Virus record (IMG/VR): IMGVR_UViG_2925450510_000002
DNA: 64,000 nt
Strand: one strand, 5' to 3'
From: a virus
Taxonomy: Duplodnaviria > Heunggongvirae > Uroviricota > Caudoviricetes
Shown here: positions 3,424 to 64,000 of the stretch, one piece after another
How positions within the stretch are numbered: position 1 is the stretch's first letter
Layout: each line of letters opens with the position of its first letter
Notes under the pieces: generated by a model
The model's input: only the letters and a program-made list of their open reading frames with translations
Told to the model about the DNA's origin: nothing
The model's database searches: none
Program-made: the position numbers and the translations under genes

Positions 3424-3426
3424 TAG

Positions 3427-10650: not shown

Positions 10651-10652
10651 CG

Positions 10653-11192: not shown

Positions 11193-11229
11193 TTCATGTT
11201 TTAATTTCGTACGGGCGTTATATCCCACG

Positions 11230-11270: not shown

Positions 11271-11306
11271 TCATGCAAAAAATAGCCGATATTTGTTCCG
11301 ATCATA

Positions 11307-13521: not shown

Positions 13522-13522
13522 A

Positions 13523-15489: not shown

Positions 15490-15783
15490 TTACTGAGATC
15501 CGGCCAGGGGTGGCTGGGTCGTATACCCCTGCAGTGCGCGTCCGTGTGCATCCACGAATCTGCGAAGCCTCACATTGGCTTCATGCCTTGCCCGGTTCTC
15601 CTTGCGGTATGGAACGGGCTCGGCTTCGAACGATTCCTGATACACAGCTGCATAACGCTGAATGGCTTTTTGTCGTGCTGCTGGCGTCAGGCTCAGTAAC
15701 TGCTGCTTGATCCATTCTTCATCTGCAGATGCGTACACAGATGGGAGCAAACCGTGGTCAGGCCTCATCCCGTGCAACATCAT
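15490..15783 (-). CDS. hypothetical protein in the cII position
   Basis: 97 aa, immediately downstream of cro. No recognisable HTH. Confidence 0.4.
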   Translation of the reverse strand: MMLHGMRPDHGLLPSVYASADEEWIKQQLLSLTPAARQKAIQRYAAVYQESFEAEPVPYRKENRARHEANVRLRRFVDAHGRALQGYTTQPPLAGSQ

Positions 15784-15979
15784 CTGAAAATACCTCGTCC
15801 AAACTTGTATTCAGGCCAAGCTGTTTAAACGCGCTGACGATCCGCTTTCCGACTGCAACATCAGGAATCCTTCTTCCTGTTTCGTAGTGGCTAACGGCCC
15901 CCTGGGAGCTATCAATCAGCGCGGCCAGCTCTCCCTGAGTTACCTTTGCTTTGCGTCTAAGGCTCTTGATTCCACTCAT
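15758..15979 (-). CDS. cro: Cro-like HTH repressor
   Basis: 73-aa XRE HTH (VTQGELAALIDSSQGAVSHYETGRR), divergent from cI. Confidence 0.65.
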   Translation of the reverse strand: MSGIKSLRRKAKVTQGELAALIDSSQGAVSHYETGRRIPDVAVGKRIVSAFKQLGLNTSLDEVFSDDVARDEA

Positions 15980-16076
15980 TCGATTAGTCTCGCATAAATA
16001 ATACATAACGTACTATACACGGTCACAAGAATAATACAAAATGGAAGTTGCTCAGTAAATACGGAATGTAATAATC
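15980..16076. promoter_or_regulatory. OR region between divergent cro and cI with three spaced ATAAT(A/C)CA repeats
   Basis: Repeats at about 15998, 16031 and 16070. The element CCATTTTGTATT (inverted) recurs downstream of cI. Confidence 0.45.
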
Positions 16077-16745
16077 ATGGCTATGAAACAGAGATGGCAG
16101 GACCTGGCCAAAACCAGGATGAAAGAAGTCGGCATGACTCAAGAACAGCTGGCAGAGGCGCTCGGCATAACGCAGGGCGGGCTGGGCCATTGGTTAAACG
16201 CCAGACGTGAACCGAACTTAGAGGTTATAGCTAAGATTTTTAACATATTGAAAATGCCCGGCTTCGTAGTAAATGCTGACGGCACTATCAGCGACTCAAG
16301 AGCCGATCACAATGTAAGTTTTAATAGCATTAACGAATCCAAGGGAAGCTACCCTGTTATAAGCTGGGTTAGCGCTGGAGATTGGATGGAAGCTGTAGAA
16401 CCGTACCACCGTAGAGCGATAGATCGATGGTATGACACCACCGTTGAATGCTCTGAGGATTCGTTCTGGTTAGACGTCAGAGGCGATTCCATGACATCAC
16501 CAGCAGGGCTGAGCATACCGGAAGGGATGGCGATACTTGTCGATCCCCAAGTGGAAGCAATCAACGGAAAATTGGTTGTAGCGAAACTTGACGGTGACAA
16601 TGAAGCCACTTTCAAAAAGCTTGTTATCGATGCCGGTCAAAGATTTCTCAAACCCCTCAACCCCCAATACCCAATAATCCCTATCAATGGCAATTGCCGT
16701 ATTATCGGGGTTGTAGTCGACGCAAAAATCACCAACCTCCCATAA
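16077..16745 (+). CDS. cI: CI-like repressor with C-terminal S24 (LexA-like) self-cleaving peptidase
   Basis: N-terminal HTH (QEQLAEALGITQGGLGHW) and C-terminal GDSM...K peptidase region. Confidence 0.85.
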   Translation: MAMKQRWQDLAKTRMKEVGMTQEQLAEALGITQGGLGHWLNARREPNLEVIAKIFNILKMPGFVVNADGTISDSRADHNVSFNSINESKGSYPVISWVSAGDWMEAVEPYHRRAIDRWYDTTVECSEDSFWLDVRGDSMTSPAGLSIPEGMAILVDPQVEAINGKLVVAKLDGDNEATFKKLVIDAGQRFLKPLNPQYPIIPINGNCRIIGVVVDAKITNLP

Positions 16746-16748
16746 ATT

Positions 16749-16772
16749 GGCCGCGAAAGCGGCTTTTTTTTT
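16749..16772 (+). terminator. rho-independent terminator after cI
   Basis: GCCGC-GAAA-GCGGC followed by nine T. Confidence 0.6.
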
Positions 16773-16906
16773 GCCTCCAACACCCCACCAGAAACTAAAA
16801 AACCTTGAAAAACAAAATGATGTGAAATAACACACCAAAATACTCCATTTTGTATTGATCTTATTTAATACGTTATGTATTGTTTATGCATTAGCGGATT
16901 AATGGA

Positions 16907-17133
16907 GTGCAAAAGATGAGTACAGAGAAATTTTTTCAACTGGTAACTATACCTGATTACCGTTTCTCTTCCGATAAAGAGCAATGTCAAAACATTGATT
17001 TCGACAAAATTGCTACTGATTGCGATACAAAAACAATATCTATTTTGCAAGCCATCAATCATATAGGGGTTAGCATAATGAGTGAGGCAGAAGAAAAGAG
17101 ATTAAATAAAGATAAAATAATGATGCTTTCTAG
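16907..17133 (+). pseudogene. 5' part of a small ORF disrupted by IS insertion; the 3' part is at 58857..58953
   Basis: The ORF reads from AT-rich phage DNA into the IS left end. Removing IS-phageB-IS and one CTAG copy rejoins it in frame as a 107-aa ORF. Confidence 0.5.
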
Positions 17134-18328
<1,195 letters not shown>

Positions 18329-19334
18329 TTAACAGCGTACTCCTGTCTACTTCATTTAAGTATTTAAATATACTACCTCTAATTATTAAAGATACAGGAG
18401 AATTTCCACAATAAACTAAATCGGCACCTGTTGGTTTCGCTAATTCTATTAATACATCAGCTGCTGATCCTGACTCGGGAAGTACACCAACAGGCCTCCC
18501 ACCTGAAAATGCAAGTATTTTACCTTCCAGCATGCTTAATTGGGGAAGCTCTTCAACATATGAATCAGGAACACGAAGGCTTCTTCGGAAATTGCTATCA
18601 ATCTTCTGATCAAGAATGGCATCACCAGCTTTCCAGGCATTAGTGTTGTCAACAATCTGCCTATCAACATAATTCTTCGTGGACGCATCCTGCGCCTGTG
18701 ACGGGTCACGCAGGTTACGAATGCGGTTGTTGAGTGCGTCGTAATAGTTCGCGAGCCACGATGGCTTCCTGAGAGATAGACCGGACCACCACCCATATGC
18801 CTGCTGCACCAGCATGGTCAACTTATCGAGAGCATCTTCGTGGATCTCAGGGAAAAAGCCACCCTGGTTCCTGATGCTGGCTTCCTGCGTAACCGGCGTG
18901 CTGCGCTCGATAGAGATTTTGTAGCCAGCTGGCAGCGCTGATGTCAGAACCACCTTCCCCCCGTTGTAACGGTTTACTCCGGTAACCGTGTAGTCGGTAC
19001 CGAGTGTTAGCGTCACGATGCTTTCGGAGGTATCCAGGGTCTGCACCAGCAGGTGGCTTTTATCCAGGATGCGGAACGTGAAATCGTATTGGGTAGTGGC
19101 GCCGTTTCCGGTGTACTCGTTACGGCTTACCTGCGTTGAAACTGTCATAGTCTGCTCCAGTGGTCAGCGCTGGCGCGCGTGCATAGAAGCATTCTATTAC
19201 CCATCAAACCATATATGAATAAAACAGATCGAAACGAGCAAAAACATTACCATTAAGGTAAATAAAACCTTCTGGAAAACCCTGTTACCTTTTGATATAT
19301 GTATATATATACAGTATTTATCGGAGTAATCCTA

Positions 19335-19595
19335 ATGCCAGAGCGGTACCAGTATCCTGTCGACGAAGGTTTTGCGGATCGTATTCACACCCCGGAAGGG
19401 GTCAGATCCCTGGTTGTAAAATCACAGCTGATGGAGTTGCTCAGGGAGATGGAGCGAGACGGCCACGATGTCAGCGGTGCGGCGGCGGAACTGGTGGCAC
19501 TGGTTAACTATGTGACGAGCTCGCAGTTGTCGATGCGGGAGCTGCAAACACACCTGGATTTCTGCGCAATGCAGTTGCGGCAGCAACTCAGATAG
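19335..19595 (+). CDS. small protein paralogous to the C-terminal domain of the downstream antirepressor
   Basis: ERYQYPVDEGFADRIHTPEGVRSLVVKSQLMELLREMERDGHDVSGAAAE aligns with RRYQDHIHSPDGLRELAKSSMVMKLLRELDADGHDVSGAAAE of 19910..20599. GGAG SD. Confidence 0.5.
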   Translation: MPERYQYPVDEGFADRIHTPEGVRSLVVKSQLMELLREMERDGHDVSGAAAELVALVNYVTSSQLSMRELQTHLDFCAMQLRQQLR

Positions 19596-19733
19596 TGATT
19601 GAAATCAAAATAAAGATGGGTTTATCATTACCAAAATGGTAAATTTACAACCCATTTTCCTTGTGCCATAGTGATCGGGCATCGGCAAAATCCGGTGCCG
19701 GGATTGGCGTCCCGGATAACTAAACGGCGCACA

Positions 19734-19909: not shown

Positions 19910-20599
19910 ATGAACACCAAACCTTCCATTTTCAATTTCGAATCAGACTCAGCTATTCGCGCCATTATGATCGATGGCAATCCTTGGTTTTTTGCATCCG
20001 ATGTTTGCCGCGCGATTGGCATCGCAAACCATCGTGATGCAGTTCGCAAACTTGATGATGACGAGAAGGGCGTCGGCTCAACCGACACCCTTGGTGGTGA
20101 GCAAGAATCAGTTATCATCTCCGAGTCTGGCCTCTACACCCTTATCCTCCGCTGCCGCGATGCGGTGACGCCGGGCACCATCCCCTACCGCTTCCGCAAA
20201 TGGGTAACCAGCGAGGTGCTGCCGCAGATCCGCAAGACTGGCCGCTACGTTCGGGAAGAACTCTCCCAGGCTGATAAAGCCCGCATGCTGGCGCAGGAGA
20301 TGACCAGCAGCATGTTGCCGGCGATCATGGATGCATTGCAGGTCGAGCAGAAGCATTACACCTTCCCTCTTAACCGACGCTATCAGGATCACATCCATTC
20401 ACCTGATGGCCTGCGTGAACTGGCGAAAAGCTCAATGGTGATGAAGCTGCTCCGCGAACTCGATGCTGACGGGCATGATGTTTCCGGCGCCGCCGCAGAG
20501 GTCACGGCCATGCTCAGCTACATTGTTGGTATCGGTGCCGTACTGCGCGACATAGAGACGCATGCTCAGTACGTGATGGTTAAGGCCAAGGGTTACTGA
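19910..20599 (+). CDS. antirepressor (Bro-N / AntA-like N-domain plus C-terminal domain)
   Basis: SIFNFESDSAIRAIMIDGNPWFFASDVCRAIG is a Bro-N signature. Confidence 0.7.
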   Translation: MNTKPSIFNFESDSAIRAIMIDGNPWFFASDVCRAIGIANHRDAVRKLDDDEKGVGSTDTLGGEQESVIISESGLYTLILRCRDAVTPGTIPYRFRKWVTSEVLPQIRKTGRYVREELSQADKARMLAQEMTSSMLPAIMDALQVEQKHYTFPLNRRYQDHIHSPDGLRELAKSSMVMKLLRELDADGHDVSGAAAEVTAMLSYIVGIGAVLRDIETHAQYVMVKAKGY

Positions 20600-21445: not shown

Positions 21446-21844
21446 CTACACATGGTAAGTGAAAATGAAAAAAGCATTCGCAGTGCTGTTTGTTCTGTTG
21501 TCTCTGGGTTCTTCTGCACAGGCTTTCGCGTACTGGATAACCCGATCGCGGATTTCAGGACGGACTTTGTTGGGACTGATGGTATTGAGCCAACCGGCCA
21601 ACTTGCGAAGAGCGAGGCAAATCATTTTGCGGGTTTTACCATCAGCGGCAACCATAGAGATTTCCTCTATAGTTGATGAGAAGCGCTGTTTCAGCTTGGT
21701 GTATTGACCCATCCAGTCCATACCCATCCCCTCAACGATAGGTTTCATCGGGGTATACGGCTCGCCGTTGTGGTTAACGACGTAGAGGCTTGCACCGTGG
21801 AAAGGTACATTGATTGTACGATCTGCAATTGCTAAACTTGTCAT
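21446..21844 (-). CDS. antirepressor, P22 Ant N-terminal-domain-like
   Basis: LAIADRTINVPFHGASLYVVNHNGEPYTPMKPIVEGMGMDW fits the P22_AR_N pattern. AGGAAA SD. Downstream of the arc-like gene. Confidence 0.55.
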   Translation of the reverse strand: MTSLAIADRTINVPFHGASLYVVNHNGEPYTPMKPIVEGMGMDWMGQYTKLKQRFSSTIEEISMVAADGKTRKMICLALRKLAGWLNTISPNKVRPEIRDRVIQYAKACAEEPRDNRTNSTANAFFIFTYHV

Positions 21845-21915
21845 GTCAATATTTCCTACGCTGGTTTGTTGATAATGAAGCCCCGAAGGTGCCAGCCAAC
21901 GGGGCTTCGCTGTTT

Positions 21916-22068
21916 TTACTGCGCATGCATTTGCCCTCTGAACTTCAGTGCCCATACAAGCGCCTGAACTAAAGCTGCATTTTCAGAAAGCCCCTCCTCC
22001 TCCGCAATGCGTTTGAACTCTTCTTTTACTTTCTGCGGATAACGCAGAGTTGTTTTTGCCTCTTTCAT
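21916..22068 (-). CDS. Arc-like ribbon-helix-helix repressor, 50 aa
   Basis: MKEAKTTLRYPQKVKEEFKRIAEEEGLSENAALVQALVWAL parallels P22 Arc (LRWPREVLDLVRKVAEENGRSVNSEIYQRVMES). Confidence 0.6.
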   Translation of the reverse strand: MKEAKTTLRYPQKVKEEFKRIAEEEGLSENAALVQALVWALKFRGQMHAQ

Positions 22069-22157
22069 TCCTACCCCTCCTCCTCCGCAATGCGTTTGAA
22101 CTCTTCTTTTACTTTCTGCGGATAACGCAGAGTTGTTTTTGCCTCTTTCATTCCTAC
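21992..22157. repeat. perfect 83-bp tandem duplication (2 copies) covering the arc-like 5' end and its upstream region
   Basis: The unit CCCTCCTCCTCCGCAATGCG...CATTCCTAC is repeated head to tail. Confidence 0.8.
22071..22151 (-). pseudogene. truncated duplicate of the arc-like gene (26 codons, stop created at the repeat junction)
   Basis: The second repeat copy carries the same RBS and ATG. The frame ends at a TAG formed by the junction. Confidence 0.5.
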
Positions 22158-38793: not shown

Positions 38794-40266
38794 TGCCCAC
38801 GGGTCGTACTCGCTGATCACGTTGGGCTGCTTGCCGCCGGCAGCAGGGAAATCTGAACGCTTCGCCACTGGATAGGCGAACGTCAGAAGCAGCGCATCGC
38901 CCTTGCCAGGAGACCGGCCCAAACGCTCTTTGATATCCTCTTTCGGCTCCATGACGATCTTACCGTCCACCCTCACCTTGTACTCTGCTGCGGACAGGTC
39001 GTCCGCAGTCTCCTGGTCGTCAATCGCGCCGCCGAGCTTGAGCCACGTCTTGCAGGCGTTGAACATCTCGCCGCGCTTATTCAGCATCTGAGGATCTGCC
39101 GATGCGCCGCCGAACGGTACAAGCTGCCAGGTACGGCCCCAGCCGTCACCGATTGACTTCAGCCCGGTGCCGTATCCGAAGTCGATAAACACCGCGTCAG
39201 CCTGGTACTGGTCCTCAAAGTCAGCGATACGCTTAGCCATAATCAGATCGTCAGTGGTCTTGTTGCCGGTCCACAGCACTTTGCTGTGCAGCCCCTGGCG
39301 GAGATAAATCACCGCGTCATCCACGCCGGAATATGCCGGGTCGACGCCGATTATCCGCGGGGCGTGCGCCACCTGCGCAGCGGTCACAACGCGCTTCATC
39401 GCCTCGTCTGTCAGACCGGTAGGGATGAACTGCAGCTCTGACGCATCAGGGAAGATCCCGCGCACGCGGACCTTCACGAAATCGCTGTCCTCGCCGTAGT
39501 CATCGACCCACTTTTGCAGCTGCTGCTTGTTGGTGCCTTCGACGGTGCGGCTGTCGATTTGCGCGCATTTCCAGCGGTGCTTGTATTTGCGGAAGCACTC
39601 TCGGAATCGCCCGGTGTTACGCGTCGGGTTACCGAACGCCACCCAGATAATTTCGGTGTCCTCGTCCGTCAGCGCGCCCTCGGCAACCTCCCAGACCAGA
39701 TCCGCGATGTTGGATGCTTCGTCGAACACCACAACGATGCGCTTACGCTCGTTGTGCAGGCCTGCAAACGCCTCGGTGTTGTGCTCAGACCAGGGAATAG
39801 CATCGGCGCGCCAGCGTTTGTCGTGGCCCGGATCGTTGCTGTACATCGCGGTGGCGGTGCAGGTGAACCACTCTTTCGTGATAGCCAGGTTCGACCATTT
39901 GATGATTTCCGGCCAGGTCTTCGTGCGCAGCTGGTTATCGGTGTTAGCGGTCACCACCACCTTGCAATCTTCACAGGTGGACATGGCCCAGTTAATCAGC
40001 ATGGAGATAAACGCAGATTTTCCGATGCCGTGGCCGGATGCGCGGGACAGCATCAGCGGCTGGTGACGTGTCGCGGGATTCTGCAGGTGCTCGCCTATTT
40101 CGCGGAATGCGTCAGCCTGCCACTGGCGCGGACCAGTGGCGTGCGCCAGTTCTGTGCCATCCTCGCCCCACGGAAACGCATACAGCGCATAGCCCAGCGG
40201 GTCATGGGTGAAGCTGGCGATATCGTCGATCAGCTGTTCTTCCGGGGATAAAGCGGCGTCTGTCAC
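38791..40266 (-). CDS. terL: terminase large subunit (phage B)
   Basis: Walker A SRASGHGIGKS plus a nuclease domain. Confidence 0.8.
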   Translation of the reverse strand: MTDAALSPEEQLIDDIASFTHDPLGYALYAFPWGEDGTELAHATGPRQWQADAFREIGEHLQNPATRHQPLMLSRASGHGIGKSAFISMLINWAMSTCEDCKVVVTANTDNQLRTKTWPEIIKWSNLAITKEWFTCTATAMYSNDPGHDKRWRADAIPWSEHNTEAFAGLHNERKRIVVVFDEASNIADLVWEVAEGALTDEDTEIIWVAFGNPTRNTGRFRECFRKYKHRWKCAQIDSRTVEGTNKQQLQKWVDDYGEDSDFVKVRVRGIFPDASELQFIPTGLTDEAMKRVVTAAQVAHAPRIIGVDPAYSGVDDAVIYLRQGLHSKVLWTGNKTTDDLIMAKRIADFEDQYQADAVFIDFGYGTGLKSIGDGWGRTWQLVPFGGASADPQMLNKRGEMFNACKTWLKLGGAIDDQETADDLSAAEYKVRVDGKIVMEPKEDIKERLGRSPGKGDALLLTFAYPVAKRSDFPAAGGKQPNVISEYDPWA

Positions 40267-40856
40267 TGGTCACCACCCTGGCGCTCTTTCAGGCGGCGCC
40301 GGGCGGCGGCCATGCGGTCAGCAATGGTGACATTCACGTTAACTTCCATGCGCTCTTTGAATGCCATCACATCAACGTGCTTACCAATCAGCTCGAGGTT
40401 CTTCACCTTGTCTGGCCATTTTATTTTTTTGAGGATAGTCTCGATCGTGGTCTCATCCATGTTCATGATGGTTGAGGACAGATCGAAACCGCTGAGCGTG
40501 GTGCGCCAGATTTTCGGCCACTCGCGGATAGGCTTCAGGCCGCCGTCATCATTCAGGATATCCAGCACGTCCATCTGGTCTATTTCCACCAGGCGCAGCA
40601 GCACGTAATCGGCGCTGACGCGCAGGCGCTTGTTGCGCTCCTCCATCAGCTCAGCGATTCGTTTTTGGATACGCTCATCACGCATCATAGTGCTGGCTTT
40701 GACGTGGGCAGACTTTGGGGAGAACCCGGCATTGATGGCCGCCTGCGTCTGATTTTCAGGGCATTTCACATACTCCTGGGCGTAGGCTTCCTGCATCACC
40801 GTCAACGGTTTGTATTGAGTTGATTTGCGCTTCGGATCCTTTGGCATGGTAAACAC
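40263..40856 (-). CDS. terS: terminase small subunit (phage B)
   Basis: 197 aa with an N-terminal HTH-like region. Overlaps the terL start by 4 nt. Confidence 0.6.
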   Translation of the reverse strand: MFTMPKDPKRKSTQYKPLTVMQEAYAQEYVKCPENQTQAAINAGFSPKSAHVKASTMMRDERIQKRIAELMEERNKRLRVSADYVLLRLVEIDQMDVLDILNDDGGLKPIREWPKIWRTTLSGFDLSSTIMNMDETTIETILKKIKWPDKVKNLELIGKHVDVMAFKERMEVNVNVTIADRMAAARRRLKERQGGDQ

Positions 40857-40924
40857 CCCGAAAATAATTACCTTTTAGGTAATAGTAACACGCAAAACAA
40901 AGCCGCCATAGTCGGCGGCCGCGG

Positions 40925-41191
40925 TCATTCCAGTTTAAATTCATCCTCTAACTCATGAGATCGGGCGGCGACATGGTCGTATAGCACGACGTACTCAACG
41001 CAGCTTGATAGGGGCATTGGCCGCTCAAACTCAAGCCAGAAGCAGTCGGCATAAGCTCGACCAAACCAGTACCCGCCGCCGAACTCCTTACCACGCTGGA
41101 TCATCATCCATCGGCCATCAGGTACAGCGTCGATAAAATCCCCGCGGTAAACGACAGTATAATTACGGTCTTTGCCACCCATGATCTTCAC
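40925..41191 (-). CDS. small hypothetical protein behind an SOS box (candidate antirepressor or inducer)
   Basis: 88 aa with an AGGGGTGAAG SD. A LexA box lies 9 nt upstream. Confidence 0.5.
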   Translation of the reverse strand: MKIMGGKDRNYTVVYRGDFIDAVPDGRWMMIQRGKEFGGGYWFGRAYADCFWLEFERPMPLSSCVEYVVLYDHVAARSHELEDEFKLE

Positions 41192-41199
41192 CCCTAAAA

Positions 41200-41219
41200 T
41201 ACTGTATATTTAAACAGTA
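41200..41219. promoter_or_regulatory. LexA (SOS) box TACTGTATATTTAAACAGTA
   Basis: CTGT-N8-ACAG with 18/20 match to the consensus. Overlaps a candidate -10; a TTGACT -35 lies upstream on the minus strand. Confidence 0.6.
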
Positions 41220-41256
41220 TAATCATGCGAGGATTTAGTCAATCTGTCGTGACATG

Positions 41257-41595
41257 TCACAGCGGTAGTTTTGTTTCGTGCCAGCCGTACATAACCCAGC
41301 ATGCGGCTTCCCCTGAGTGCGGGCATGATGCCACTGGCAGTTGATCTCCGCACTTGCCGCAGCGCCGTTTGCTGATGGCGTTAATCCGGCCGCGCACCCG
41401 GGCATCATCCTGGCGGATCAGCAGCGCGATGTACTCGGCCATTTCGTATGGATCGCGACCAGGGCGCCGGGCGGCGCAGTTCCGCGCCAGCATCTCTACT
41501 TCCTGCTCGTCGAGCACCAGTTCAATTTTGCGCTCACCGGCGGCGGACTGCCGCGCGCGCTGCGCGGCTTTGCGTTCTGCTGGGGATTTAGGCAT
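41257..41595 (-). CDS. hypothetical protein with C-terminal Cys cluster
   Basis: 112 aa, CGKCGD...CPHSGEAAC. Confidence 0.45.
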   Translation of the reverse strand: MPKSPAERKAAQRARQSAAGERKIELVLDEQEVEMLARNCAARRPGRDPYEMAEYIALLIRQDDARVRGRINAISKRRCGKCGDQLPVASCPHSGEAACWVMYGWHETKLPL

Positions 41596-41834
41596 CAGTC
41601 GTCATCCTCATCCCAATCGTCACCTTCCTCATCCTCTTCATCATCGCAGGATGCGAGCAGAGGATTCATCCGCCGCCCTACCTGGCTGGCGTAGCCGCGG
41701 CGACAGAGGTTGTGCAGCACGCTGTAAATTTCGAACATTTCGGTCCGCTCATCACCAATATCAAGCTCACAGGCCAGCGTGTGGCATTCAGTAGCGAGTG
41801 CCGATATCTTCTCAAGCAGTTCGACCTTATTCAC
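41595..41834 (-). CDS. small protein with a poly-acidic C-terminal tail (DDEEDEEGDDWDEDDD)
   Basis: 79 aa. Start overlaps the stop of the upstream gene. Confidence 0.45.
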   Translation of the reverse strand: MNKVELLEKISALATECHTLACELDIGDERTEMFEIYSVLHNLCRRGYASQVGRRMNPLLASCDDEEDEEGDDWDEDDD

Positions 41835-42495
41835 CTTTCACCTCCTGAGGGGCGGCTGGCAGCGGCATCCAGTGGGTTACGTTTTGCAACTTCAATCTGT
41901 CGCATGGCTCATAGCCATCAATGGTAAATCCATCATCAGAACTATACATAGCCTCGCCATAAACCTGATCTCCATCGAAAGCGATAACTGCCTCAAAATC
42001 TATCGGCATCTGCTCGCTTACCGGAATCCATTTACCCGGCACGGTAGCGGGTTCACTGCCGGGTGACTGAGGGGCGGCTGCGAGCATGGCGGCGCGGCAG
42101 GCGTTCCAGGAATCAGCGGCCGCATTTCGCTGGTCTTCATCCCACTGGAATACAGCGCGGTCACGACGCCTGGCACTGGCAAGAATTTCGATACTGTCCG
42201 GAGTGGCTTCTTCCGGCACTACCGGCGCTGGCTGCGCGTGGCGATAGAGCGGCTCAACCTCTCCCGCCAGGTCACCTCTACTGGCGAGATGCCACCGTTT
42301 ATCTGGCCCACTGCGCCAACGCCACGCCACCGGCTCGCTGTCCATCGCGGCCAGCGCCAGTTCAGCAAGCTGCAGGTCAGCCAATATTTCTTCGCGTGCG
42401 CTTTCGAATGCTTTCTGTCGTGATGCCATTTTCAGCGCTTTGACGTTTTCACGAGCGCGTTCGTGAAGCTGCGCTCTGGTTAATTTGCTGGTCAT
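41827..42495 (-). CDS. DUF551-family protein
   Basis: C-terminal ...VTHWMPLPAAP motif. Confidence 0.5.
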   Translation of the reverse strand: MTSKLTRAQLHERARENVKALKMASRQKAFESAREEILADLQLAELALAAMDSEPVAWRWRSGPDKRWHLASRGDLAGEVEPLYRHAQPAPVVPEEATPDSIEILASARRRDRAVFQWDEDQRNAAADSWNACRAAMLAAAPQSPGSEPATVPGKWIPVSEQMPIDFEAVIAFDGDQVYGEAMYSSDDGFTIDGYEPCDRLKLQNVTHWMPLPAAPQEVKGE

Positions 42496-42704
42496 TGGTT
42501 GGCTCCCCGTGAAATTTTGTGGCCCGGCGCATAGCAGCGCTGGCGGTCTTTGCTGATGCGCCAGCCAGCTTTGCGCGCCTGCTGAGAAATATCGGTCATA
42601 TTCCGGCCAATAAAATCAGCCTGCCCCTGCGGATAGATTTTCCCTGACTGACAACCATCACAGTCGCAGTAGAGGTCCGCGCAAAATCCTTCAGTGATAG
42701 CCAT
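42492..42704 (-). CDS. Cys-rich small zinc-binding protein
   Basis: 70 aa with 8 Cys (CADLYCDCDGCQSGK...). Confidence 0.45.
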   Translation of the reverse strand: MAITEGFCADLYCDCDGCQSGKIYPQGQADFIGRNMTDISQQARKAGWRISKDRQRCYAPGHKISRGANQ

Positions 42705-47573: not shown

Positions 47574-48155
47574 ATGAAAAGCATCTACGACATAAGACGC
47601 GACAACCTCAATGAGATAATCCGGAAGGATTTCGATAACACGCAACTCCGGTTTGCCGAGAGAATCAAAAAATCAGCTAACCTCGTTAACAGGTGGAGCA
47701 AGGGGACAAAAAATATCGGCGCTAACGCGGCACGCGAGATCGAGTCGTTCGCCGGAAAAGGTCGTTTCTGGCTGGATATCGACCATCTGTCAGATACCCC
47801 GACGCTGCCGGAGATTATCGACCCGCAGGAATGGAGTGTGGAAAAGCAGGCAGCGTTTACCCTGGGTGTATGGATGGGACAGCATCCGGATCTGAACTCA
47901 GAGAAAAAGGTTTCGGAAGCGGCCGGTATCGGCCAGGCGACCGTAAATCGCATCCTGAACTGCGAAGGCTCCACCAGCATTGGCGTACTGTCGGCTATCG
48001 CCAGGGCGTTCGGCCGCGATGCATATGAGCTGATCCTGCCGCCTGGTAATGCTGGTCTGATTGACTATGACCACCATGAATACGCCGGGCTGCCGCAGGA
48101 AGAGAAAAACAAGATCACCGCCTTCATCAAGTTCATCGTCAGCCAGAACCAGTAA
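47574..48155 (+). CDS. phage B repressor candidate with two HTH domains and no peptidase domain
   Basis: N-terminal and C-terminal XRE-like HTH segments. No Ser-Lys peptidase motif. Confidence 0.55.
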   Translation: MKSIYDIRRDNLNEIIRKDFDNTQLRFAERIKKSANLVNRWSKGTKNIGANAAREIESFAGKGRFWLDIDHLSDTPTLPEIIDPQEWSVEKQAAFTLGVWMGQHPDLNSEKKVSEAAGIGQATVNRILNCEGSTSIGVLSAIARAFGRDAYELILPPGNAGLIDYDHHEYAGLPQEEKNKITAFIKFIVSQNQ

Positions 48156-57655: not shown

Positions 57656-58851
<1,196 letters not shown>

Positions 58852-58856
58852 CCTAG

Positions 58857-58953
58857 TGTGGTTGCAGACCTCGCTGAATTAGCAATAGCAACAAATAAAA
58901 TAGCTAACTCAGCAACATATTCTTCCGGTTATAAGGATGCTAAAAATGTCTGA
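58857..58953 (+). pseudogene. 3' part of the IS-disrupted phage A ORF (pairs with 16907..17133)
   Basis: Same reading frame once the TSD is collapsed (...LSSVVADLAELAIATNKIANSATYSSGYKDAKNV). Confidence 0.5.
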
Positions 58954-59134
58954 TATCACTTTGCAAAAAGCAGCATCAAAGGCTTACCAGGCTGAGATTG
59001 TGGCGAGGATGCTTGAGAACTACCCTCATAAACTGACCGACTCAGACGTGGAATCTGTCGCCTCACTTTTGGCTGATCTGATTGGGCCAGTTGCAGCGTA
59101 CCTTATTGAGGAAGAGTCTAAAAACCCGGCTTAA
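58946..59134 (+). CDS. small hypothetical protein
   Basis: 62 aa with an AAGGA SD. ATGTCTGA overlap with the upstream stop. Confidence 0.4.
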   Translation: MSDITLQKAASKAYQAEIVARMLENYPHKLTDSDVESVASLLADLIGPVAAYLIEEESKNPA

Positions 59135-59303
59135 AAATTTAATTAGTAATTTTAATTACAGGAGTAATCCCGGGGATTTCTGCAATCAAATTAAGGGTAA
59201 CCATGATTAATAAACAAGCATTTAAAACAGCTCAGTTATTTGTCTCTCTTGGTTATTGGTCTATAGCCATGCTTTATTTAAAAAAGGCTTACGGTAAATA
59301 AAA

Positions 59304-59669
59304 GTGAATAATTTAATTAGCACTTATAGACGCAGAATTTTAAAAGCGGCCTTGTTACGCCACCAGCGAAAGACTGGGAGTAGCTTACTTGTCATTAAGC
59401 TCAACAAGGGTGGGATTAGTACTATCGAATTAACTGAGATTCTTCTTGATGGATTGTTGCGGAAATTCGAGCGACTGGCGCTCGGTGAATACGGAAATGT
59501 GGAAGGTGTGAAAGCTCTTAAGGGAATTTACAGCAACTCTGTTGATGTTAATGGCAGCGGCGAATTCCTCACAGAAAGCGGGAAAGAGTTAATCGACGAG
59601 CTTATTTCTGAACTGGTTGAGTTCGTCAAAAAGCAGAAACCAGTTACTGCGGAGTCCGGCAATGAATAA
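59304..59669 (+). CDS. hypothetical protein
   Basis: 121 aa. Confidence 0.45.
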   Translation: MNNLISTYRRRILKAALLRHQRKTGSSLLVIKLNKGGISTIELTEILLDGLLRKFERLALGEYGNVEGVKALKGIYSNSVDVNGSGEFLTESGKELIDELISELVEFVKKQKPVTAESGNE

Positions 59670-59916
59670 CCAGCAAACAATGCTCTATCAGGGTGTGCTG
59701 ATCCCCCGCCCCGTGTTGAACGTGGATCTGCATGTCCTCCCTGATTTTACCGGGCGGGTAGTCTTGCACATCGAGAACGGGAGGGTGATATGCGACCGCC
59801 AGCTGTTCGACGACGAGCACATTTGCACACTGGCCACGTTTATCGAAATGGCCCGCGACGCGGGGTTGAGGATCGAGGAGGAAGCTGGTGGCACTGACAG
59901 CGATACGAATTCCTGA
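59662..59916 (+). CDS. hypothetical protein
   Basis: 84 aa. Start overlaps the previous stop. Confidence 0.4.
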   Translation: MNNQQTMLYQGVLIPRPVLNVDLHVLPDFTGRVVLHIENGRVICDRQLFDDEHICTLATFIEMARDAGLRIEEEAGGTDSDTNS

Positions 59917-60102
59917 GAGGGTTCACCTGCAGGCGCTGCAGGTCCTGCTGCGGTATCGGCGCCGGCGGATATTCCCGCGGCGAATGCGCCGCACCGGCTA
60001 CCTCAGCCTGAAGGTTAACCCACGCTGGCGCCTGTTATCGAAAGACGATGGCCGGAACTGGGAAGTTATGAGTCATGAAACCTATAACCGGGAGAAAGAC
60101 AA

Positions 60103-60528
60103 ATGATTGACAACAGAACTGTCAGCGCCATTGACCTGGCGTTGCAAAAGCACCCAACGCCAGTTGGTGATCTGTTCGCCGCGATCCGCCACGGACGCAT
60201 GAAGCGGTGCTTCAGCCGGGATACCGCAATTCGTTACCTGGCGTTCTTCATGACCTCCCGAGCTTTTGGGCGTTCTGGTTTCAAGCAGCGTTATCCGGAC
60301 GTGCAGGTAATTCATCCACTGAATCCAGAACTGAGTAGCTGGCAACGTGGCGCCGTGACCACTGAGTATTTTAACGCCCACCAGCGCACCGTTCGCCGGC
60401 TGCGTCGCATCCTCGCCCGCAAAAGAGAAATGCAAAAGTGGTGCAAAAAGTGGGATGCCATGCACGACCGCTACGTGAAAGAGCGCGAAGAACTACAGGC
60501 CTGTAAGCCTGGAGGGCTGAGTCGATGA
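60103..60528 (+). CDS. hypothetical protein, first gene of a coupled 4-gene block
   Basis: 141 aa. Stop overlaps the next start. Confidence 0.45.
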   Translation: MIDNRTVSAIDLALQKHPTPVGDLFAAIRHGRMKRCFSRDTAIRYLAFFMTSRAFGRSGFKQRYPDVQVIHPLNPELSSWQRGAVTTEYFNAHQRTVRRLRRILARKREMQKWCKKWDAMHDRYVKEREELQACKPGGLSR

Positions 60529-60719
60529 TTGCTTACTTACGCATTGTTCTATCGGTGGTGATTGTCGCCAGCGTTTATGGGCTGTTCGTTCCGATCCTCA
60601 TTTCGATGAAGGACACGACAGCAGTTATATCCGGTTTTGCCCTGGCGATTCTGACCCCGCCGTGCATCTACGCCATTTGTAAGGGTCTTGTGCTTACCGT
60701 AACGAAGGAAAAGAAATGA
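60525..60719 (+). CDS. small two-TM membrane protein
   Basis: 64 aa. ATGA coupling on both sides. Confidence 0.45.
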   Translation: MIAYLRIVLSVVIVASVYGLFVPILISMKDTTAVISGFALAILTPPCIYAICKGLVLTVTKEKK

Positions 60720-61543
60720 AAAAAGCAATTATGGCTTCAATTATCGCACTCTCTGCCATCGGCCTTGTTGGTTGCGATCGAGTTGAGCCCGGCAACGTGG
60801 GTATCAAGGTGAATAAGTTGGGCGACGATAAAGGCGTTGGTGAAGTCGTCGGCGTCGGCCGCTACTGGACCGGCTGGAATACCGAGGTTTATATCTTTCC
60901 GACCTTCAAGCAGATGAAAACGTATGAAGACGCTTTCAACTTCCAGATGAGCGATGGAACCACCATCGGCTACCACATCGGGGTCGCGTACAAGGTTGAT
61001 CCGACCAAAGTTACAACCGTTTTCCAGACCTACCGTAAAGGCGTGGACGACATCACCGACACCGACCTGCGGCAGAAAATTGCTGACGCCCTTAATCGTC
61101 TCGCAAGTCGGATGAGCACCGATAAATTCATTGACGGCGGGAAAGCTGAGCTGCTTGAAAACGCACTGAAAGAGATCCAGTCCGATATGGGGCCGGTTGG
61201 TATCCAGGTGATCAGCCTTTCTTACGTTGGCCGTCCGGAATACCCGCCGACAGTGATCGAAAGCATCAACGCCAAAGTTACGGCCAACCAGAAGACGCTG
61301 CAGCGCGAGCAGGAAGTTAAACAACGTGAAGCTGAAGCCAACATGTTACGAGCCGAAGCCGATGGCCAGGCGGATGCAAAGCTGAAATTGGCTGAAGCAG
61401 AAGCAAAGTCTATCCAGATCCGTGGGCAGGCCTTGCGTGAGAACCCTGAGGTACTGCAACTGGAGGCCATCAACAAATGGAATGGCACCCTGCCCCAGTA
61501 CATGACCAGCGGAACAAACACCCCTTTTATCCAGGTTAAATGA
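60716..61543 (+). CDS. SPFH/band-7 (prohibitin/flotillin-like) lipoprotein
   Basis: Lipobox LVGC, an SPFH core, and a C-terminal coiled coil (EQEVKQREAEANMLRAEADGQADAKLKLAEAEAK). Confidence 0.7.
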   Translation: MKKAIMASIIALSAIGLVGCDRVEPGNVGIKVNKLGDDKGVGEVVGVGRYWTGWNTEVYIFPTFKQMKTYEDAFNFQMSDGTTIGYHIGVAYKVDPTKVTTVFQTYRKGVDDITDTDLRQKIADALNRLASRMSTDKFIDGGKAELLENALKEIQSDMGPVGIQVISLSYVGRPEYPPTVIESINAKVTANQKTLQREQEVKQREAEANMLRAEADGQADAKLKLAEAEAKSIQIRGQALRENPEVLQLEAINKWNGTLPQYMTSGTNTPFIQVK

Positions 61544-62166
61544 TCCACCAGCCCGGCGACAAGCCGGGCACATATGAGAGGTTCGCAATGCTTCAGAACA
61601 TGCTTAACCCGGAACCAACCTCAACAGGGATCCGGTCTGGAAACCGGGTGATTGGCTACTCCGCTGCTATTCGCCTGCTGGATAACGGTCGCTATGACAA
61701 ACACCTTGCCGATGGAATGGAAATTCTGGCCTGCATCATGGAAGCGGTAGAAAGCAACTGGATCACGCTCAATATCGAAAAAGAGTTGATCCTCTGGCGC
61801 TGGTTACTGGCTGCCGTGTTCATCACTGAGGAGCTGGAGAAAAACGGAACTGTCGACGTTCCGAATGATACTGGCGGTGTTGATACTGCTGTTATCTATT
61901 CCAGCAAGCATGGCGCCATTAGCGTCTATCCGGGACCTGAACGCTTTGCACTCGCCAACCATATTGAGCTGGGGGCAATCGAGAAATATGGGCCAGAGGT
62001 TGGCCAGCAGCTGGCGCTGCGGATGTATCAGGACATGGTTATTGCTGACGAAGAATTTGGGTTCAGGTTATCAGCACTTGGCCGGGAGGGGCTTAACCTC
62101 CTCCATGACAGCTTTATCGAACACATCCAGATCGAAGGTGTGCCCGAAGCACCGATTATGCATTGA
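61540..62166 (+). CDS. hypothetical protein
   Basis: 208 aa. Coupled to the SPFH gene. Confidence 0.5.
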   Translation: MIHQPGDKPGTYERFAMLQNMLNPEPTSTGIRSGNRVIGYSAAIRLLDNGRYDKHLADGMEILACIMEAVESNWITLNIEKELILWRWLLAAVFITEELEKNGTVDVPNDTGGVDTAVIYSSKHGAISVYPGPERFALANHIELGAIEKYGPEVGQQLALRMYQDMVIADEEFGFRLSALGREGLNLLHDSFIEHIQIEGVPEAPIMH

Positions 62167-62882
62167 GGGGAATGATGATGAATAACTTGATCACTAACAA
62201 ACCATCCATGACCAGCCTTGAGATCGCCGAGCTGGTAGAAAAACGCCACGACAACGTGAAACGCACGATTGAGACCCTGATTATGCGTGGCGTTATTACT
62301 TCTCCTCAAATTGAGGAAAAGCCTACTGCCGGGCGCCCCACAACAATTTACGTTTTTGAAAGTGAAGAAGGGAAGCGTGACAGCATCATTGTGGTCGCGC
62401 AACTCAGCCCCGAGTTTACCGCCAGACTGGTAGATCGCTGGAAAGAGCTGGAAGAAGAACGCTCCCGGCCAAAATCGCAGGCAGAGCTGATCGCTGAAAT
62501 GGCCCTGCTGAATGTTGAGCAGGAACGACGCCTCTACCAGGTTGAAGAACAGGTGGAAACCGTAGTCGAAGCTGTCGAAAACATTAAGCGTGGAAATATG
62601 CGGGCCGGGTATGTCGGTTATCGCCAGGTGGTCGCAAAAAGCGGCATGACCGATGCCAAGTGTCGAAACCTTGTTAACGCATACCGTATCCCAACCGATA
62701 CACACGAATTCATGACGCCTGATGGTTTACTGTCTCGCCGGGCGATCGTGGAGTTTGAACCTTTTATGAAAGCATTCCGCCAAATGATGGCAGAAGCCGA
62801 ACCACGTGGGACCCGTTGGTATCACCCGAAAATGGGACTCTTTCAGGCTATCGGATGGGAGGAAAAACATTGTGAAAATTGA
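62163..62882 (+). CDS. Rha-family phage regulatory protein
   Basis: TSLEIAELVEKRHDNVKRTIETL Rha N-domain. Confidence 0.65.
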   Translation: MRGMMMNNLITNKPSMTSLEIAELVEKRHDNVKRTIETLIMRGVITSPQIEEKPTAGRPTTIYVFESEEGKRDSIIVVAQLSPEFTARLVDRWKELEEERSRPKSQAELIAEMALLNVEQERRLYQVEEQVETVVEAVENIKRGNMRAGYVGYRQVVAKSGMTDAKCRNLVNAYRIPTDTHEFMTPDGLLSRRAIVEFEPFMKAFRQMMAEAEPRGTRWYHPKMGLFQAIGWEEKHCEN

Positions 62883-63096
62883 GTTTAATGATCAAGGGTC
62901 GGTTTCAGTTATCACGGTCACCAGCACCGTGTTTGAGTTCCGCCGGCACAACCGGGCGATTGATGTCGCGTTGTTCCTCACGCCTGAAATTACCAGCCAG
63001 AGCAGCGGTTTTTTCATTATGAAAACGATCTTAAGCGGGAAGACACATCACGCGCTGCGGGCCTATAAACATCTGATCCGGGAGGCTAAGCAATGA
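62872..63096 (+). CDS. small hypothetical protein (GTG start)
   Basis: GGGAGGA SD. Confidence 0.35.
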   Translation: MKIEFNDQGSVSVITVTSTVFEFRRHNRAIDVALFLTPEITSQSSGFFIMKTILSGKTHHALRAYKHLIREAKQ

Positions 63097-63305
63097 GAAA
63101 CGGCCAGCATTATGCATACCCAAATCCAAGCAACGCAACGCCTGGTGGTATGACTTATCGTCAGTATCTTATCGCAAAAATTGCACCAGTTATGATCACG
63201 AACTTCTTCAGCAACGATGCTTGGACGGATTACGACGACCTCGCCAGAACTCTGATGATGGCTGTGGATGCCATCATCGAAGCTGAACAGGAGACAGCTG
63301 AATGA
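63093..63305 (+). CDS. hypothetical protein
   Basis: 70 aa, coupled. Confidence 0.4.
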   Translation: MRNGQHYAYPNPSNATPGGMTYRQYLIAKIAPVMITNFFSNDAWTDYDDLARTLMMAVDAIIEAEQETAE

Positions 63306-63781
63306 CAATCTGCGAAAAACGGCTTAAAAGAATCGCCGGCGGTGAACCTTTCTTCCCGGGCGAGGTGGTTGCGATGGCTCTTGAGCTTCTGGCGAATTCT
63401 AAAGAAACATTGCGGCCGGAATACCCTGAAACACTCCCCTGCCCGGTCATTCTTGAACCCGGCTTCCGGTTTGGCAAAGGCGTTGGCACTCACCTGGTTC
63501 TGCGAGCACTTAACAACAGGGCTAAACGTTACGCTGAATTGGATGCCATGGGTCCAGAGGCCCGCGCAGAGCATGATGCCGCTATCGTTGAACTTCGGGA
63601 AAAACTGGGTTTTGGTACCCAAGCAAAAACAGCTGTGCAGGTGAAGCTTCCGGGACTGCCGCAGCTCGGATCTAACGCCGAATGGTATCAGGGATTTGCT
63701 GCTGGTGCAGGAAGCATGCGCGAAGCATGTGCGGCCGCTCTGATTTCTGCGGGTATTGAAATTATTGGGGAGACAATGTAA
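63302..63781 (+). CDS. hypothetical protein
   Basis: 159 aa. Confidence 0.45.
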   Translation: MTICEKRLKRIAGGEPFFPGEVVAMALELLANSKETLRPEYPETLPCPVILEPGFRFGKGVGTHLVLRALNNRAKRYAELDAMGPEARAEHDAAIVELREKLGFGTQAKTAVQVKLPGLPQLGSNAEWYQGFAAGAGSMREACAAALISAGIEIIGETM

Positions 63782-63852
63782 TGGACTGGCCAACAGCATT
63801 TTGCATCGTCGGTTGTGCGTTTGCCATAGCCTGGCTGTTTCGGAGTTAGTGT

Positions 63853-64000
63853 CATGAATAGAGAATTTGAGATATGGATCAGACTGCGCTACGGCGGCCG
63901 CTATGACCTAACGCGAGACGGTCACGGCTACTACAGCCGGGAAGTAGTTAAGCGGATGTATGAAGTGTGGTGCCACTGCCGTGGCCTGGAAGTGGTGTGA
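63853..64000 (+). CDS. small hypothetical protein, about 48 aa
   Basis: ORF ending exactly at the window end, preceded by a 22-codon hydrophobic mini-ORF (63781..63849). Confidence 0.3.

What the first reader, a model, noticed from the sequence alone, without database searches (positions are those of the whole stretch)
40925..41219. Near-consensus LexA box controlling a small gene at the head of the phage B terminase-structural region
TACTGTATATTTAAACAGTA (41200..41219) is a textbook CTGT-N8-ACAG SOS box. It overlaps a candidate -10 and lies 9 nt upstream of the RBS of an 88-aa ORF. The phage B repressor candidate has two HTH domains and no autocleaving S24 domain, whereas phage A cI has one. 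SOS induction of phage B would therefore need a LexA-controlled antirepressor, as in coliphage 186 Tum or the Gifsy phages, and this ORF is positioned to be it. The terS palindrome operator is 320 bp downstream.
Basis: partly seen in the sequence, partly recalled or inferred. Interest (0 to 1): 0.6.

Follow-up and report, generated by a model that had tools for sequence, protein, structure and literature searches.

The report
SOS-controlled accessory gene, not the antirepressor
The LexA (SOS) operator is real and almost certainly switches on a small prophage gene after DNA damage, but that gene is a widespread accessory cassette of unknown function, and the antirepressor that induces this phage is a different, already characterised gene 22 kb away.

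Summary
The perfect LexA box (41200-41219) is confirmed. It overlaps the -10 of a TTGACT-17 nt-TACTGT promoter that reads the minus strand into an 85-aa gene (ATG 41182, not GTG 41191) and ends at a terminator (40901-40920). LexA control is well supported by comparison. Homologues of the gene (PHROG 2100, about 40% identical) carry a strong LexA box upstream in 8 of 8 unrelated phages and in 29 of 32 bacterial genomes. The antirepressor reading is not supported. Phage B is an epsilon15-like Uetakevirus. Its two-HTH repressor (47574-48155) and an 86-aa gene at 19335-19595 are homologues of the Rep-Ant pair of Salmonella phage SPC32H, solved as a complex (PDB 5D50). That ant gene has its own LexA-like box (19297-19316) and a Rep operator, in the same layout as SPC32H. 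Sibling Klebsiella phages with a 99% identical Rep have the identical LexA promoter in the same slot but a UmuD'-like gene instead. In P2-like phages the family follows a Tum-type antirepressor gene and dinI in one LexA operon. It also occurs in a P22-like phage whose repressor self-cleaves. Its function is unknown: no Pfam match, no fold match, and a conserved acidic C-terminal tail. Ordinary in kind; modest interest.

The parts
41200..41219 (-). LexA (SOS) box. It reads TACTGTTTAAATATACAGTA on the gene strand.
   Evidence: 0 mismatches to the consensus. PWM score 27.2 bits, the best in the window. An equivalent box lies upstream of homologues in 8/8 phage loci and 29/32 genome loci.
41214..41242 (-). 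Sigma-70-type promoter: -35 TTGACT (41242-41237), 17-nt spacer, -10 TACTGT (41219-41214), which is the left arm of the LexA box.
   Evidence: Read from the sequence. The same -35/spacer/box geometry is seen in most of 27 homologous loci aligned on the box. The stringent consensus scan did not call it, because the -10 is weak.
40925..41182 (-). 85-aa gene (MGGKD...EFKLE), PHROG 2100. NCBI names it 'lF-82', which appears to be a strain label. The Shine-Dalgarno-like AGGGGTGA is at 41188-41195.
   Evidence: phrog_2100 E 1.1e-44. No Pfam, NCBIfam or PADLOC match. 28 homologues found, 26 sequences aligned. AlphaFold2 pLDDT 85.8, and no fold match.
40901..40920 (-). Intrinsic terminator ending the cassette. 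The same hairpin lies before terS in phage EC.W1-9, which lacks the cassette.
   Evidence: Terminator scan. RNA fold -18.8 kcal/mol, z -2.3. EC.W1-9 sequence.
40868..40882 (.). Rep operator TTACCTTTTAGGTAA in front of terS (40263-40856, minus strand). It is not part of the LexA cassette.
   Evidence: One of 10 perfect TTACC-N5-GGTAA sites, 0.8 expected. SPC32H also has 10 such sites at comparable places, including one before terS.
47574..48155 (+). Phage B repressor (Rep): 193 aa, two HTH regions, no S24 domain.
   Evidence: Pfam HTH_3 only. PDB 5D50_A, SPC32H Repressor, E 8.8e-77. Flanked by operator pairs at 47489/47506 and 48220/48283.
19335..19595 (+). ant, the likely real LexA-controlled antirepressor of phage B (86 aa).
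   Evidence: PDB 5D50_E 'Anti-repressor protein', E 2.5e-33. Annotated ant in SPC32H/SPC32N and found in 35 phage records, mostly Uetakeviruses. Divergent from the tail-spike gene, as in SPC32H.
19297..19316 (.). LexA-like box ATATGTATATATATACAGTA in front of ant. One half-site is degenerate.
   Evidence: 3 mismatches. PWM score 18.9 bits, inside the range of the training boxes. SPC32H has a strong box (25.7 bits) at the equivalent place, the only strong box in that genome.
19247..19261 (.). Rep operator upstream of the ant promoter. A second one lies at 19628-19642, downstream of ant.
   Evidence: SPC32H has TTACCTGTAAGGTAA about 40 nt upstream of its ant LexA box.

Best explanation
The locus is a self-contained SOS-inducible accessory cassette (a moron). 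It sits between the last early gene (41257-41595) and terS of an epsilon15-like (Uetakevirus) prophage.

Proposed mechanism:
1. In the lysogen, host LexA binds the box, which covers the -10 of the TTGACT-17-TACTGT promoter, and blocks transcription.
2. After DNA damage, RecA-stimulated LexA self-cleavage frees the promoter.
3. A short monocistronic mRNA is made that ends at the terminator at 40901-40920, and the 85-aa protein accumulates.
4. This happens independently of the phage repressor, because there is no Rep operator in the cassette.

The protein is not the induction switch. That role belongs to the Rep/Ant pair: Rep at 47574-48155 and ant at 19335-19595, with its own LexA-like box and Rep operator, as in SPC32H.

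The 85-aa protein is most likely a host-directed SOS effector. The family travels with dinI and Tum-type genes in LexA operons, and a UmuD'-like gene replaces it in the same slot in sibling phages. My working guess is therefore that it modulates the RecA/SSB-ssDNA damage-response machinery, possibly through its conserved acidic C-terminal tail.

Shown: the box, the promoter geometry, its conservation, the identity of Rep and Ant, and the cargo swap. Inferred: LexA binding in Klebsiella, the transcript limits, and the function of the protein.
For: Box strength and rarity:
-.

Conservation of the box with the gene:
- 8/8 phage loci have it. In the six stand-alone loci the box lies within about 45 nt upstream of the gene; in the two P2-like phages it heads a three-gene operon.
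- 29/32 GTDB genome loci have it. The three exceptions are partial gene copies.
- Only one other box of 14 bits or more occurs in roughly 190 kb of flanks.
- The -35 and spacing are conserved.
- The BZS1 genome paper independently noted a LexA motif before its homologue p37 and gave no function (PMC7556043).

The antirepressor role is already filled:
- Rep and Ant match PDB 5D50 chains A and E.
- SPC32H has a single strong LexA box, before ant, with a Rep operator next to it.
- A review states that LexA cleavage leads to Ant production in this phage, citing Kim and Ryu 2013 (PMC7380047).

The gene is dispensable for this repressor type:
- ST11-OXA245phi3.2, Kp4865-1 and BUCT711 have a 99.0-99.5% identical Rep and the identical box.
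- They carry a 109-aa UmuD'-like gene instead.
- EC.W1-9 and SPC32H have no cassette.

The family occurs with unrelated switches:
- P2-like phages have the operon LexA box, then a 62-aa gene (98% identical to a Fels-2 ORF), then dinI, then this gene.
- P22-like SE1 has an S24 C2 repressor.
- 418 plasmids carry it, mostly of SSU5 phage-plasmid size.

No similarity to known small antirepressors:
-.
Against: - There are no experimental data for this gene or for LexA binding at this site in Klebsiella.
- The -10 (TACTGT) is weak, and the stringent promoter scan did not call it.
- The LexA box in front of ant is degenerate in one half-site in the Klebsiella clade (18.9 against 25.7 bits in SPC32H). 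A second SOS input into induction is therefore not absurd.
- The weight matrix was built from boxes recalled from memory.
Confidence: 0.75

Rival explanations
1. The 85-aa protein is the LexA-controlled antirepressor of phage B, or a second one. It binds the two-HTH repressor and triggers induction, as Tum, GfoA or Ant do.
For: - The repressor is non-cleavable.
- The gene is small, LexA-controlled and outside the immunity region, like known antirepressors (PMC3121763).
- The ant LexA box is degenerate in this clade.
Against: - A bona fide Ant homologue is present with the right regulatory layout.
- Siblings with the same Rep lack the gene and carry a UmuD'-like gene in the slot.
- The family occurs in phages with unrelated repressors, including a self-cleaving C2, and next to a Tum-type gene in the same operon.
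- There is no similarity to Ant or GftA, and no counterpart in the scanned part of N15.
Confidence: 0.06
2. The protein is a counter-defence, superinfection-exclusion or growth-arrest factor (for example an inhibitor of a host nuclease or of cell division). It would be made at the onset of SOS to prepare the cell for phage development, with no link to RecA or SSB.
For: - It occupies stand-alone moron positions in many unrelated temperate phages and phage-plasmids.
- It is a small protein without a known fold, which is typical of such factors.
Against: - No PADLOC match.
- It repeatedly sits in the same operon as dinI and Tum-type genes, and a UmuD'-like gene replaces it in the same slot. Both point to the damage response itself.
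- Nothing tested here excludes this reading.
Confidence: 0.17
3. The box mainly gates read-through into terS/terL, or an antisense transcript on the plus strand, and so couples late-gene expression to SOS. The small ORF would be incidental.
For: - The cassette lies directly upstream of terS.
- A plus-strand promoter-like site (TTGCCA-17-TAAAAT, 41172-41200) abuts the box.
Against: - A good terminator separates the cassette from terS.
- terS has its own Rep operator and has no cassette in SPC32H or EC.W1-9.
- The box travels with the gene to positions far from any terminase gene.
- The protein is strongly conserved.
Confidence: 0.02

Closest known systems
Rep-Ant antirepression system of Salmonella phage SPC32H (Kim and Ryu 2013; structure PDB 5D50/5D4Z, Kim et al. 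2016)
   Same: Phage B has homologues of both proteins, the same TTACC-N5-GGTAA operators at comparable places, and a LexA box plus Rep operator before ant.
   Different: The 85-aa gene of the finding is not part of that system. SPC32H has no such cassette and no LexA box before terS. The ant box is weaker in the Klebsiella clade.
SOS operon of 186/Fels-2/PSP3-type P2-like phages (tum, or a split tum plus dinI)
   Same: In Cartapus, ST13-OXA48phi12.1 and several Enterobacter/Pantoea prophages, the family is the last gene of a LexA-boxed operon. That operon starts with a 60-62-aa gene (98% identical to a Fels-2 ORF) followed by dinI.
   Different: It is a third, separate gene, unrelated in sequence to the Tum-type gene or to DinI. 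Here it stands alone with its own box.
Gifsy dinI-gfoA/gftA-irsA operon (Lemire et al. 2011, PMC3121763)
   Same: A LexA-repressed prophage operon outside the immunity region that encodes small proteins, with a gene following dinI.
   Different: There is no detectable similarity to GftA (hhalign probability 0.1%), and no homologue in Gifsy-2.
LexA-controlled UmuD'-like accessory genes of temperate phages (N15 gene 26; P1 humD, the latter from memory)
   Same: It is the same kind of element: a host-LexA-controlled accessory gene not needed for the lytic switch. N15 gene 26 has a LexA box about 15 nt upstream (24.6 bits). Sibling Klebsiella Uetakeviruses carry a UmuD'-like gene in exactly this slot behind the identical box.
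   Different: The protein family is different and has no known activity.
phiBZS1_p37 of Serratia phage vB_SspM_BZS1 (PMC7556043)
   Same: It is a homologue (40% identity) for which the authors already reported a LexA motif upstream and predicted LexA regulation.
   Different: That paper gives no function and no family-wide analysis. Here the cassette lies before terS rather than near int.

Membership tests
LexA (SOS) regulon operator, gammaproteobacterial type | 20-bp palindrome TACTG(TA)5CAGTA with invariant CTG...CAG | tested here: met
   0 mismatches to the pattern used. 27.2 bits, above all 18 training boxes.
LexA (SOS) regulon operator, gammaproteobacterial type | Position overlapping or next to the core promoter of the regulated gene | tested here: met
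   The box supplies the -10, 17 nt after TTGACT. The geometry is conserved in most of 27 loci.
LexA (SOS) regulon operator, gammaproteobacterial type | Conservation of the site upstream of orthologues (phylogenetic footprint) | tested here: met
   8/8 phage loci and 29/32 genome loci at 32-63% protein identity.
LexA (SOS) regulon operator, gammaproteobacterial type | LexA binding and DNA-damage-dependent derepression | not testable with these tools
   Needs EMSA or ChIP, and expression data in lexA(Ind-).
SPC32H-type antirepressor (Ant) | Sequence or structural homology to Ant (PDB 5D50 chain E) | tested here: not met
   The 85-aa protein has no meaningful PDB sequence hit (best E 0.15, unrelated). 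hhalign against the window's Ant gives probability 0.1%. The gene at 19335-19595 does meet this feature (E 2.5e-33).
SPC32H-type antirepressor (Ant) | Co-occurrence with the Rep-type repressor | tested here: not met
   Three phages with 99.0-99.5% identical Rep lack the gene. SPC32H lacks it. Ant occurs in 35 phage records against 37 for Rep, largely the same Uetakeviruses.
Tum-type antirepressor (186 / Fels-2 / PSP3) | Homology to the Tum N-terminal part or to its split gene | tested here: not met
   The Tum-type 62-aa gene (98% identical to a Fels-2 ORF) is a separate gene in the same operons as the family.
Gifsy-type antirepressors (GfoA/GftA/FsoA) | Homology to GftA | tested here: not met
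   hhalign probability 0.1%. hmmsearch --max of Gifsy-2 six-frame ORFs gives only noise.
N15 AntC | Homologue present in N15 | tested here: not met
   No hit with the family profile in six-frame ORFs of N15 positions 20000-46375. The first 20 kb of N15 was not scanned.
Any antirepressor (functional definition) | Binds the cognate repressor and releases it from DNA | not testable with these tools
   Needs a pull-down or EMSA with Rep.
DinI / UmuD' SOS modulators | Pfam DinI or Peptidase_S24/UmuD' homology | tested here: not met
PHROG 2100 (uncharacterised phage protein family) | Full-length match to the family profile | tested here: met
   E 1.1e-44, residues 4-87 against profile positions 1-84 of 85.

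The most novel reading that the evidence does not exclude
PHROG 2100 is an uncharacterised effector of the mobile SOS regulon of Enterobacterales. It would be a small protein whose conserved, flexible C-terminal tail ([FW]-D-D-[DE]-F-x-L-x-COOH) imitates the acidic tip of host SSB (DFDDDIPF, from established knowledge). It would use that tail to dock onto, or compete for, SSB-partner or RecA-filament proteins when DNA damage is sensed. The UmuD'-like gene that replaces it in sibling phages ends in SDDDIPIM, and N15 gp26 ends in EFDDCPVL. The shared slot may therefore collect SSB-tail mimics.
Probability: 0.12. Interest if true: 0.7.

Novelty: new member of a known kind. Interest (0 to 1): 0.38.

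Why it matters
For this window, the work corrects the wiring diagram of SOS induction. The switch is the known Rep/Ant/LexA circuit of epsilon15-like phages. The conspicuous perfect LexA box belongs to a separate accessory cassette.

More generally, the cassette is one of the most tightly LexA-linked uncharacterised genes carried by enterobacterial prophages and SSU5-type phage-plasmids. It occurs in 418 plasmids in PLSDB, in Klebsiella ST258/ST512-lineage prophages, and in E. coli LF82. It shares operons with Tum-type genes and dinI, and it swaps with a UmuD'-like gene.

It is a cheap and well-defined target for finding out what else temperate phages do to the host damage response. That question bears on prophage induction and mutagenesis under DNA-damaging antibiotics.

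Tried and rejected
Searches for a known family or fold for the 85-aa protein:
- Pfam, NCBIfam and PADLOC gave nothing.
- A PDB sequence search gave only noise.
- The afdb50 library was unavailable.
- A profile search of 1.84 billion cluster representatives found only 99 small single-domain relatives and no fusion to an informative domain.

Tests of homology to known small antirepressors:
- All were negative for GftA, SPC32H Ant and the scanned part of N15.

Literature:
- No paper on the NCBI name 'lF-82' was found. The name appears to be just the strain label, because E. coli LF82 carries an identical copy of the Cartapus gene.
- The two primary SPC32H papers are not held. I cite a review, secondary descriptions and the PDB matches instead.

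Other checks:
- Rfam found no RNA family in 40000-42500.
- My first operator pattern, with a 6-nt spacer, was wrong. The spacer is 5 nt.
- I considered whether the box acts on terS or on an antisense transcript. I rejected this because of the terminator and because the box always travels with the gene.

Full report
**Observation.** The sequence TACTGTATATTTAAACAGTA is at 41200-41219.
- It matches the SOS-box pattern with no mismatch. Matches with up to three mismatches are expected 0.12 times in this window.
- I built a weight matrix from 18 E. coli SOS boxes recalled from memory. With it the site scores 27.2 bits, higher than any training site.
- Only one other position in 64 kb exceeds 12 bits: 19297-19316, at 18.9 bits.
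- The bare CTGT-N8-ACAG core is not significant by itself.

**The gene and its signals.** The adjacent ORF lies on the minus strand.
- Every homologue begins MGGKD, and PHROG 2100 aligns from residue 4 of the listed ORF. Translation therefore starts at ATG 41182 (85 aa), not at GTG 41191.
- A Shine-Dalgarno-like AGGGGTGA lies at 41188-41195.
- On the gene strand, TTGACT (41242-41237) is followed by 17 nt and then TACTGT (41219-41214), the left arm of the box. LexA bound there would cover the -10.
- A hairpin with a U-run at 40901-40920 ends the unit.
- The Rep-type palindrome TTACCTTTTAGGTAA (40868-40882) and terS follow.
- Rfam finds no RNA family in the region.

**Context.** The window matches Klebsiella prophage records from ST512/ST11 strains.
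- 'Phage B' is an epsilon15-like podovirus (Uetakevirus) by gene order and by its nearest relatives: BUCT711, Kp4865-1, Tyrion, SPN1S, epsilon15 and phiV10.
- Its repressor (47574-48155) has HTH regions only.
- The palindrome TTACC-N5-GGTAA occurs ten times against 0.8 expected. The sites lie on both sides of the repressor gene, before the DUF1064 gene, before terS, after terL and around 19250-19640.
- SPC32H has ten sites of the same consensus at comparable places.

**Is the box functional?** The best available test is comparison.
- The protein family (about 40% identity) occurs in unrelated temperate phages: P2-like Cartapus and ST13-OXA48phi12.1, the phage-plasmid SSU5, Serratia BZS1, P22-like SE1, Cronobacter JK004 and ENT47670, and Klebsiella phi12.3.
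- All eight loci have a strong LexA box upstream (22-27 bits). In the six stand-alone loci it lies within about 45 nt of the gene. In the two P2-like phages it heads a three-gene operon.
- A scan of one genome per GTDB species returned 32 loci. Twenty have a box within about 80 nt upstream of the gene. Nine have one 270-570 nt upstream, at the head of a short operon.
- The three loci without a box are partial gene copies.
- Only one other box of 14 bits or more occurs anywhere in those flanks.
- When the loci are aligned on the box, a TTGAC -35 element about 17 nt upstream is shared by most of them.
- The authors of the BZS1 genome paper had already noted a LexA motif before their homologue p37 and left the function open (PMC7556043).
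- I therefore regard LexA control as well supported, although binding has not been shown.

**Is it the antirepressor?** Four lines of evidence say no.
1. The role is already filled.
   - The repressor matches the SPC32H Repressor (PDB 5D50 chain A, E 8.8e-77). An 86-aa gene at 19335-19595 matches the SPC32H Anti-repressor (chain E, E 2.5e-33).
   - In SPC32H, LexA cleavage leads to production of Ant, which inactivates Rep by binding it (review PMC7380047 citing Kim and Ryu 2013; structural summaries).
   - SPC32H has a single strong LexA box, directly before ant, with a Rep operator about 40 nt further upstream. The window has the same arrangement: operator at 19247, box at 19297, ant divergent from the tail-spike gene.
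   - Ant was found in 35 phage records and the repressor in 37, and the listed records are largely the same Uetakeviruses.
2. The gene is dispensable for this repressor type.
   - ST11-OXA245phi3.2, Kp4865-1 and BUCT711 have a 99.0-99.5% identical repressor and the identical promoter and box at the same place.
   - The gene behind the box in those phages encodes a 109-aa UmuD'-like protein. It starts at the UmuD' N-terminus GFPSPAADYVEQ (E 0.002 to UmuD/UmuD' structures).
   - EC.W1-9 and SPC32H have nothing in the slot.
3. The family occurs with unrelated switches.
   - In P2-like phages it follows a 60-62-aa gene (98% identical to a Fels-2 ORF; the split tum described in PMC3121763) and dinI in one LexA operon.
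   - In SE1 the repressor is a P22-type C2 with a Peptidase_S24 domain.
4. There is no similarity to GftA of Gifsy-2 or to Ant, and no counterpart in Gifsy-2, SPC32H or the scanned part of N15.

**What the protein might do.**
- It has no Pfam, NCBIfam or PADLOC match.
- The family is small: 99 clusters at 50% identity among 1.84 billion representatives, always a single domain.
- It is largely confined to Enterobacterales prophages and to plasmids of SSU5 phage-plasmid size (418 PLSDB records).
- The AlphaFold2 model is confident (pLDDT 85.8): four strands, a helix at 58-73 and a less ordered tail. It resembles nothing in the PDB or BFVD libraries.
- The invariant features are the N-terminus MGGKD, a QRxKxxGGG[YF]W[FL]G loop, DCFWLEF, and a C-terminal motif [FW]-D-D-[DE]-F-x-L within a few residues of the end. 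A looser form of that motif is present in all 41 family members examined and in under 1% of control ORFs, some of which are family members themselves.
- From general knowledge, this tail recalls the SSB tip DFDDDIPF. The UmuD'-like cargo of the sibling phages ends SDDDIPIM, and N15 gp26 ends EFDDCPVL.
- Together with the dinI and Tum-type neighbours, this suggests a protein that acts on the host RecA/SSB damage-response machinery. That is an inference from context, not a result.

**Comparison with the known, and verdict.**
- In kind, this is a LexA-controlled accessory gene of a temperate phage, like N15 gene 26 (LexA box confirmed), P1 humD (from memory) or phage-borne dinI.
- The family is an uncharacterised, strongly LexA-linked member of the mobile SOS regulon, which is a reasonable experimental target but not a surprise. 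I rate it a new member of a known kind, with interest 0.38.

Noticed in passing
window 17135-18337 and 57657-58852, with 1-17133 and 58853-64000: Two direct copies of a ~1.2-kb IS5-family element bracket the whole phage B segment. The IS-phage B-IS block sits inside phage A: the two phage A parts are contiguous in Klebsiella phage ST11-VIM1phi8.3, with a 4-bp overlap. The phage B int gene is still next to its lysis genes, as in the circular genome, and the tail-spike gene is split by the IS. This looks like an IS-mediated cointegrate or composite transposon. If so, phage B here is probably not excisable by Int and cannot make an intact tail spike.
   Followed up: partly
window 19247, 19628, 37612, 40868, 45168, 45230, 47489, 47506, 48220, 48283: There are ten perfect TTACC-N5-GGTAA Rep operators spread over the prophage, including directly before terS and after terL. 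SPC32H has ten at comparable places. The repressor therefore seems to control late and accessory promoters directly, not only the immunity region.
   Followed up: partly
window 19297-19316: The LexA box in front of ant has a degenerate left half in the Klebsiella clade (ATATGT instead of TACTGT). It is identical in BUCT711, whereas SPC32H has a near-perfect box. ant may be less tightly LexA-repressed here.
   Followed up: partly
window 19910-20599 and 21446-21955: A BRO-N protein has a C-terminal 80 residues that are a paralogue of Ant (39% identity, E 6e-24). A P22_AR_N antirepressor-like protein lies between ant and the tail genes. Together these make an immI-like accessory region with extra Ant-domain proteins.
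   Followed up: partly
L010 1320-1649, L012 1614-1943 (sibling phages ST11-OXA245phi3.2 and BUCT711): The alternative cargo behind the identical LexA promoter is a 109-aa UmuD'-like protein. It starts at the UmuD' N-terminus and has no Peptidase_S24 match in Pfam. In the alignment with UmuD, AAGYAI stands where UmuD has ASGDSM. It ends in SDDDIPIM, which resembles the SSB C-terminal tip.
   Followed up: partly
window 41249-41260: The perfect palindrome GTGACATGTCAC overlaps the stop codon of the last early gene (PHROG 536 'transcriptional regulator', 41257-41595), just upstream of the cassette's -35. It is conserved in EC.W1-9 and in the Kluyvera and Citrobacter loci L016 and L017. It may be a regulatory site for late transcription.
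   Followed up: no
window 21991-22156: There is a perfect 83-bp tandem duplication inside the Arc/Mnt-like ribbon-helix-helix gene region. It gives two copies of the N-terminal coding part MKEAKTTLRYPQKVKEEFKRIAEEEG.
   Followed up: no
L024, L036, L041 (genome-contig hits): Family members with LexA boxes appear on short contigs labelled Capnocytophaga, Micromonospora and Paenarthrobacter. These are probably enterobacterial contamination of those assemblies rather than true hosts.
   Followed up: no
MK422448.1 (L001) compared with the window: The public record 'ST512-KPC3phi13.3' places phage B int next to guaA. The window places int next to the phage lysis genes, and coordinates are shifted by about 1.3 kb between the two. 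Either the record or the window reflects a different arrangement, or the record joins contigs.
   Followed up: no
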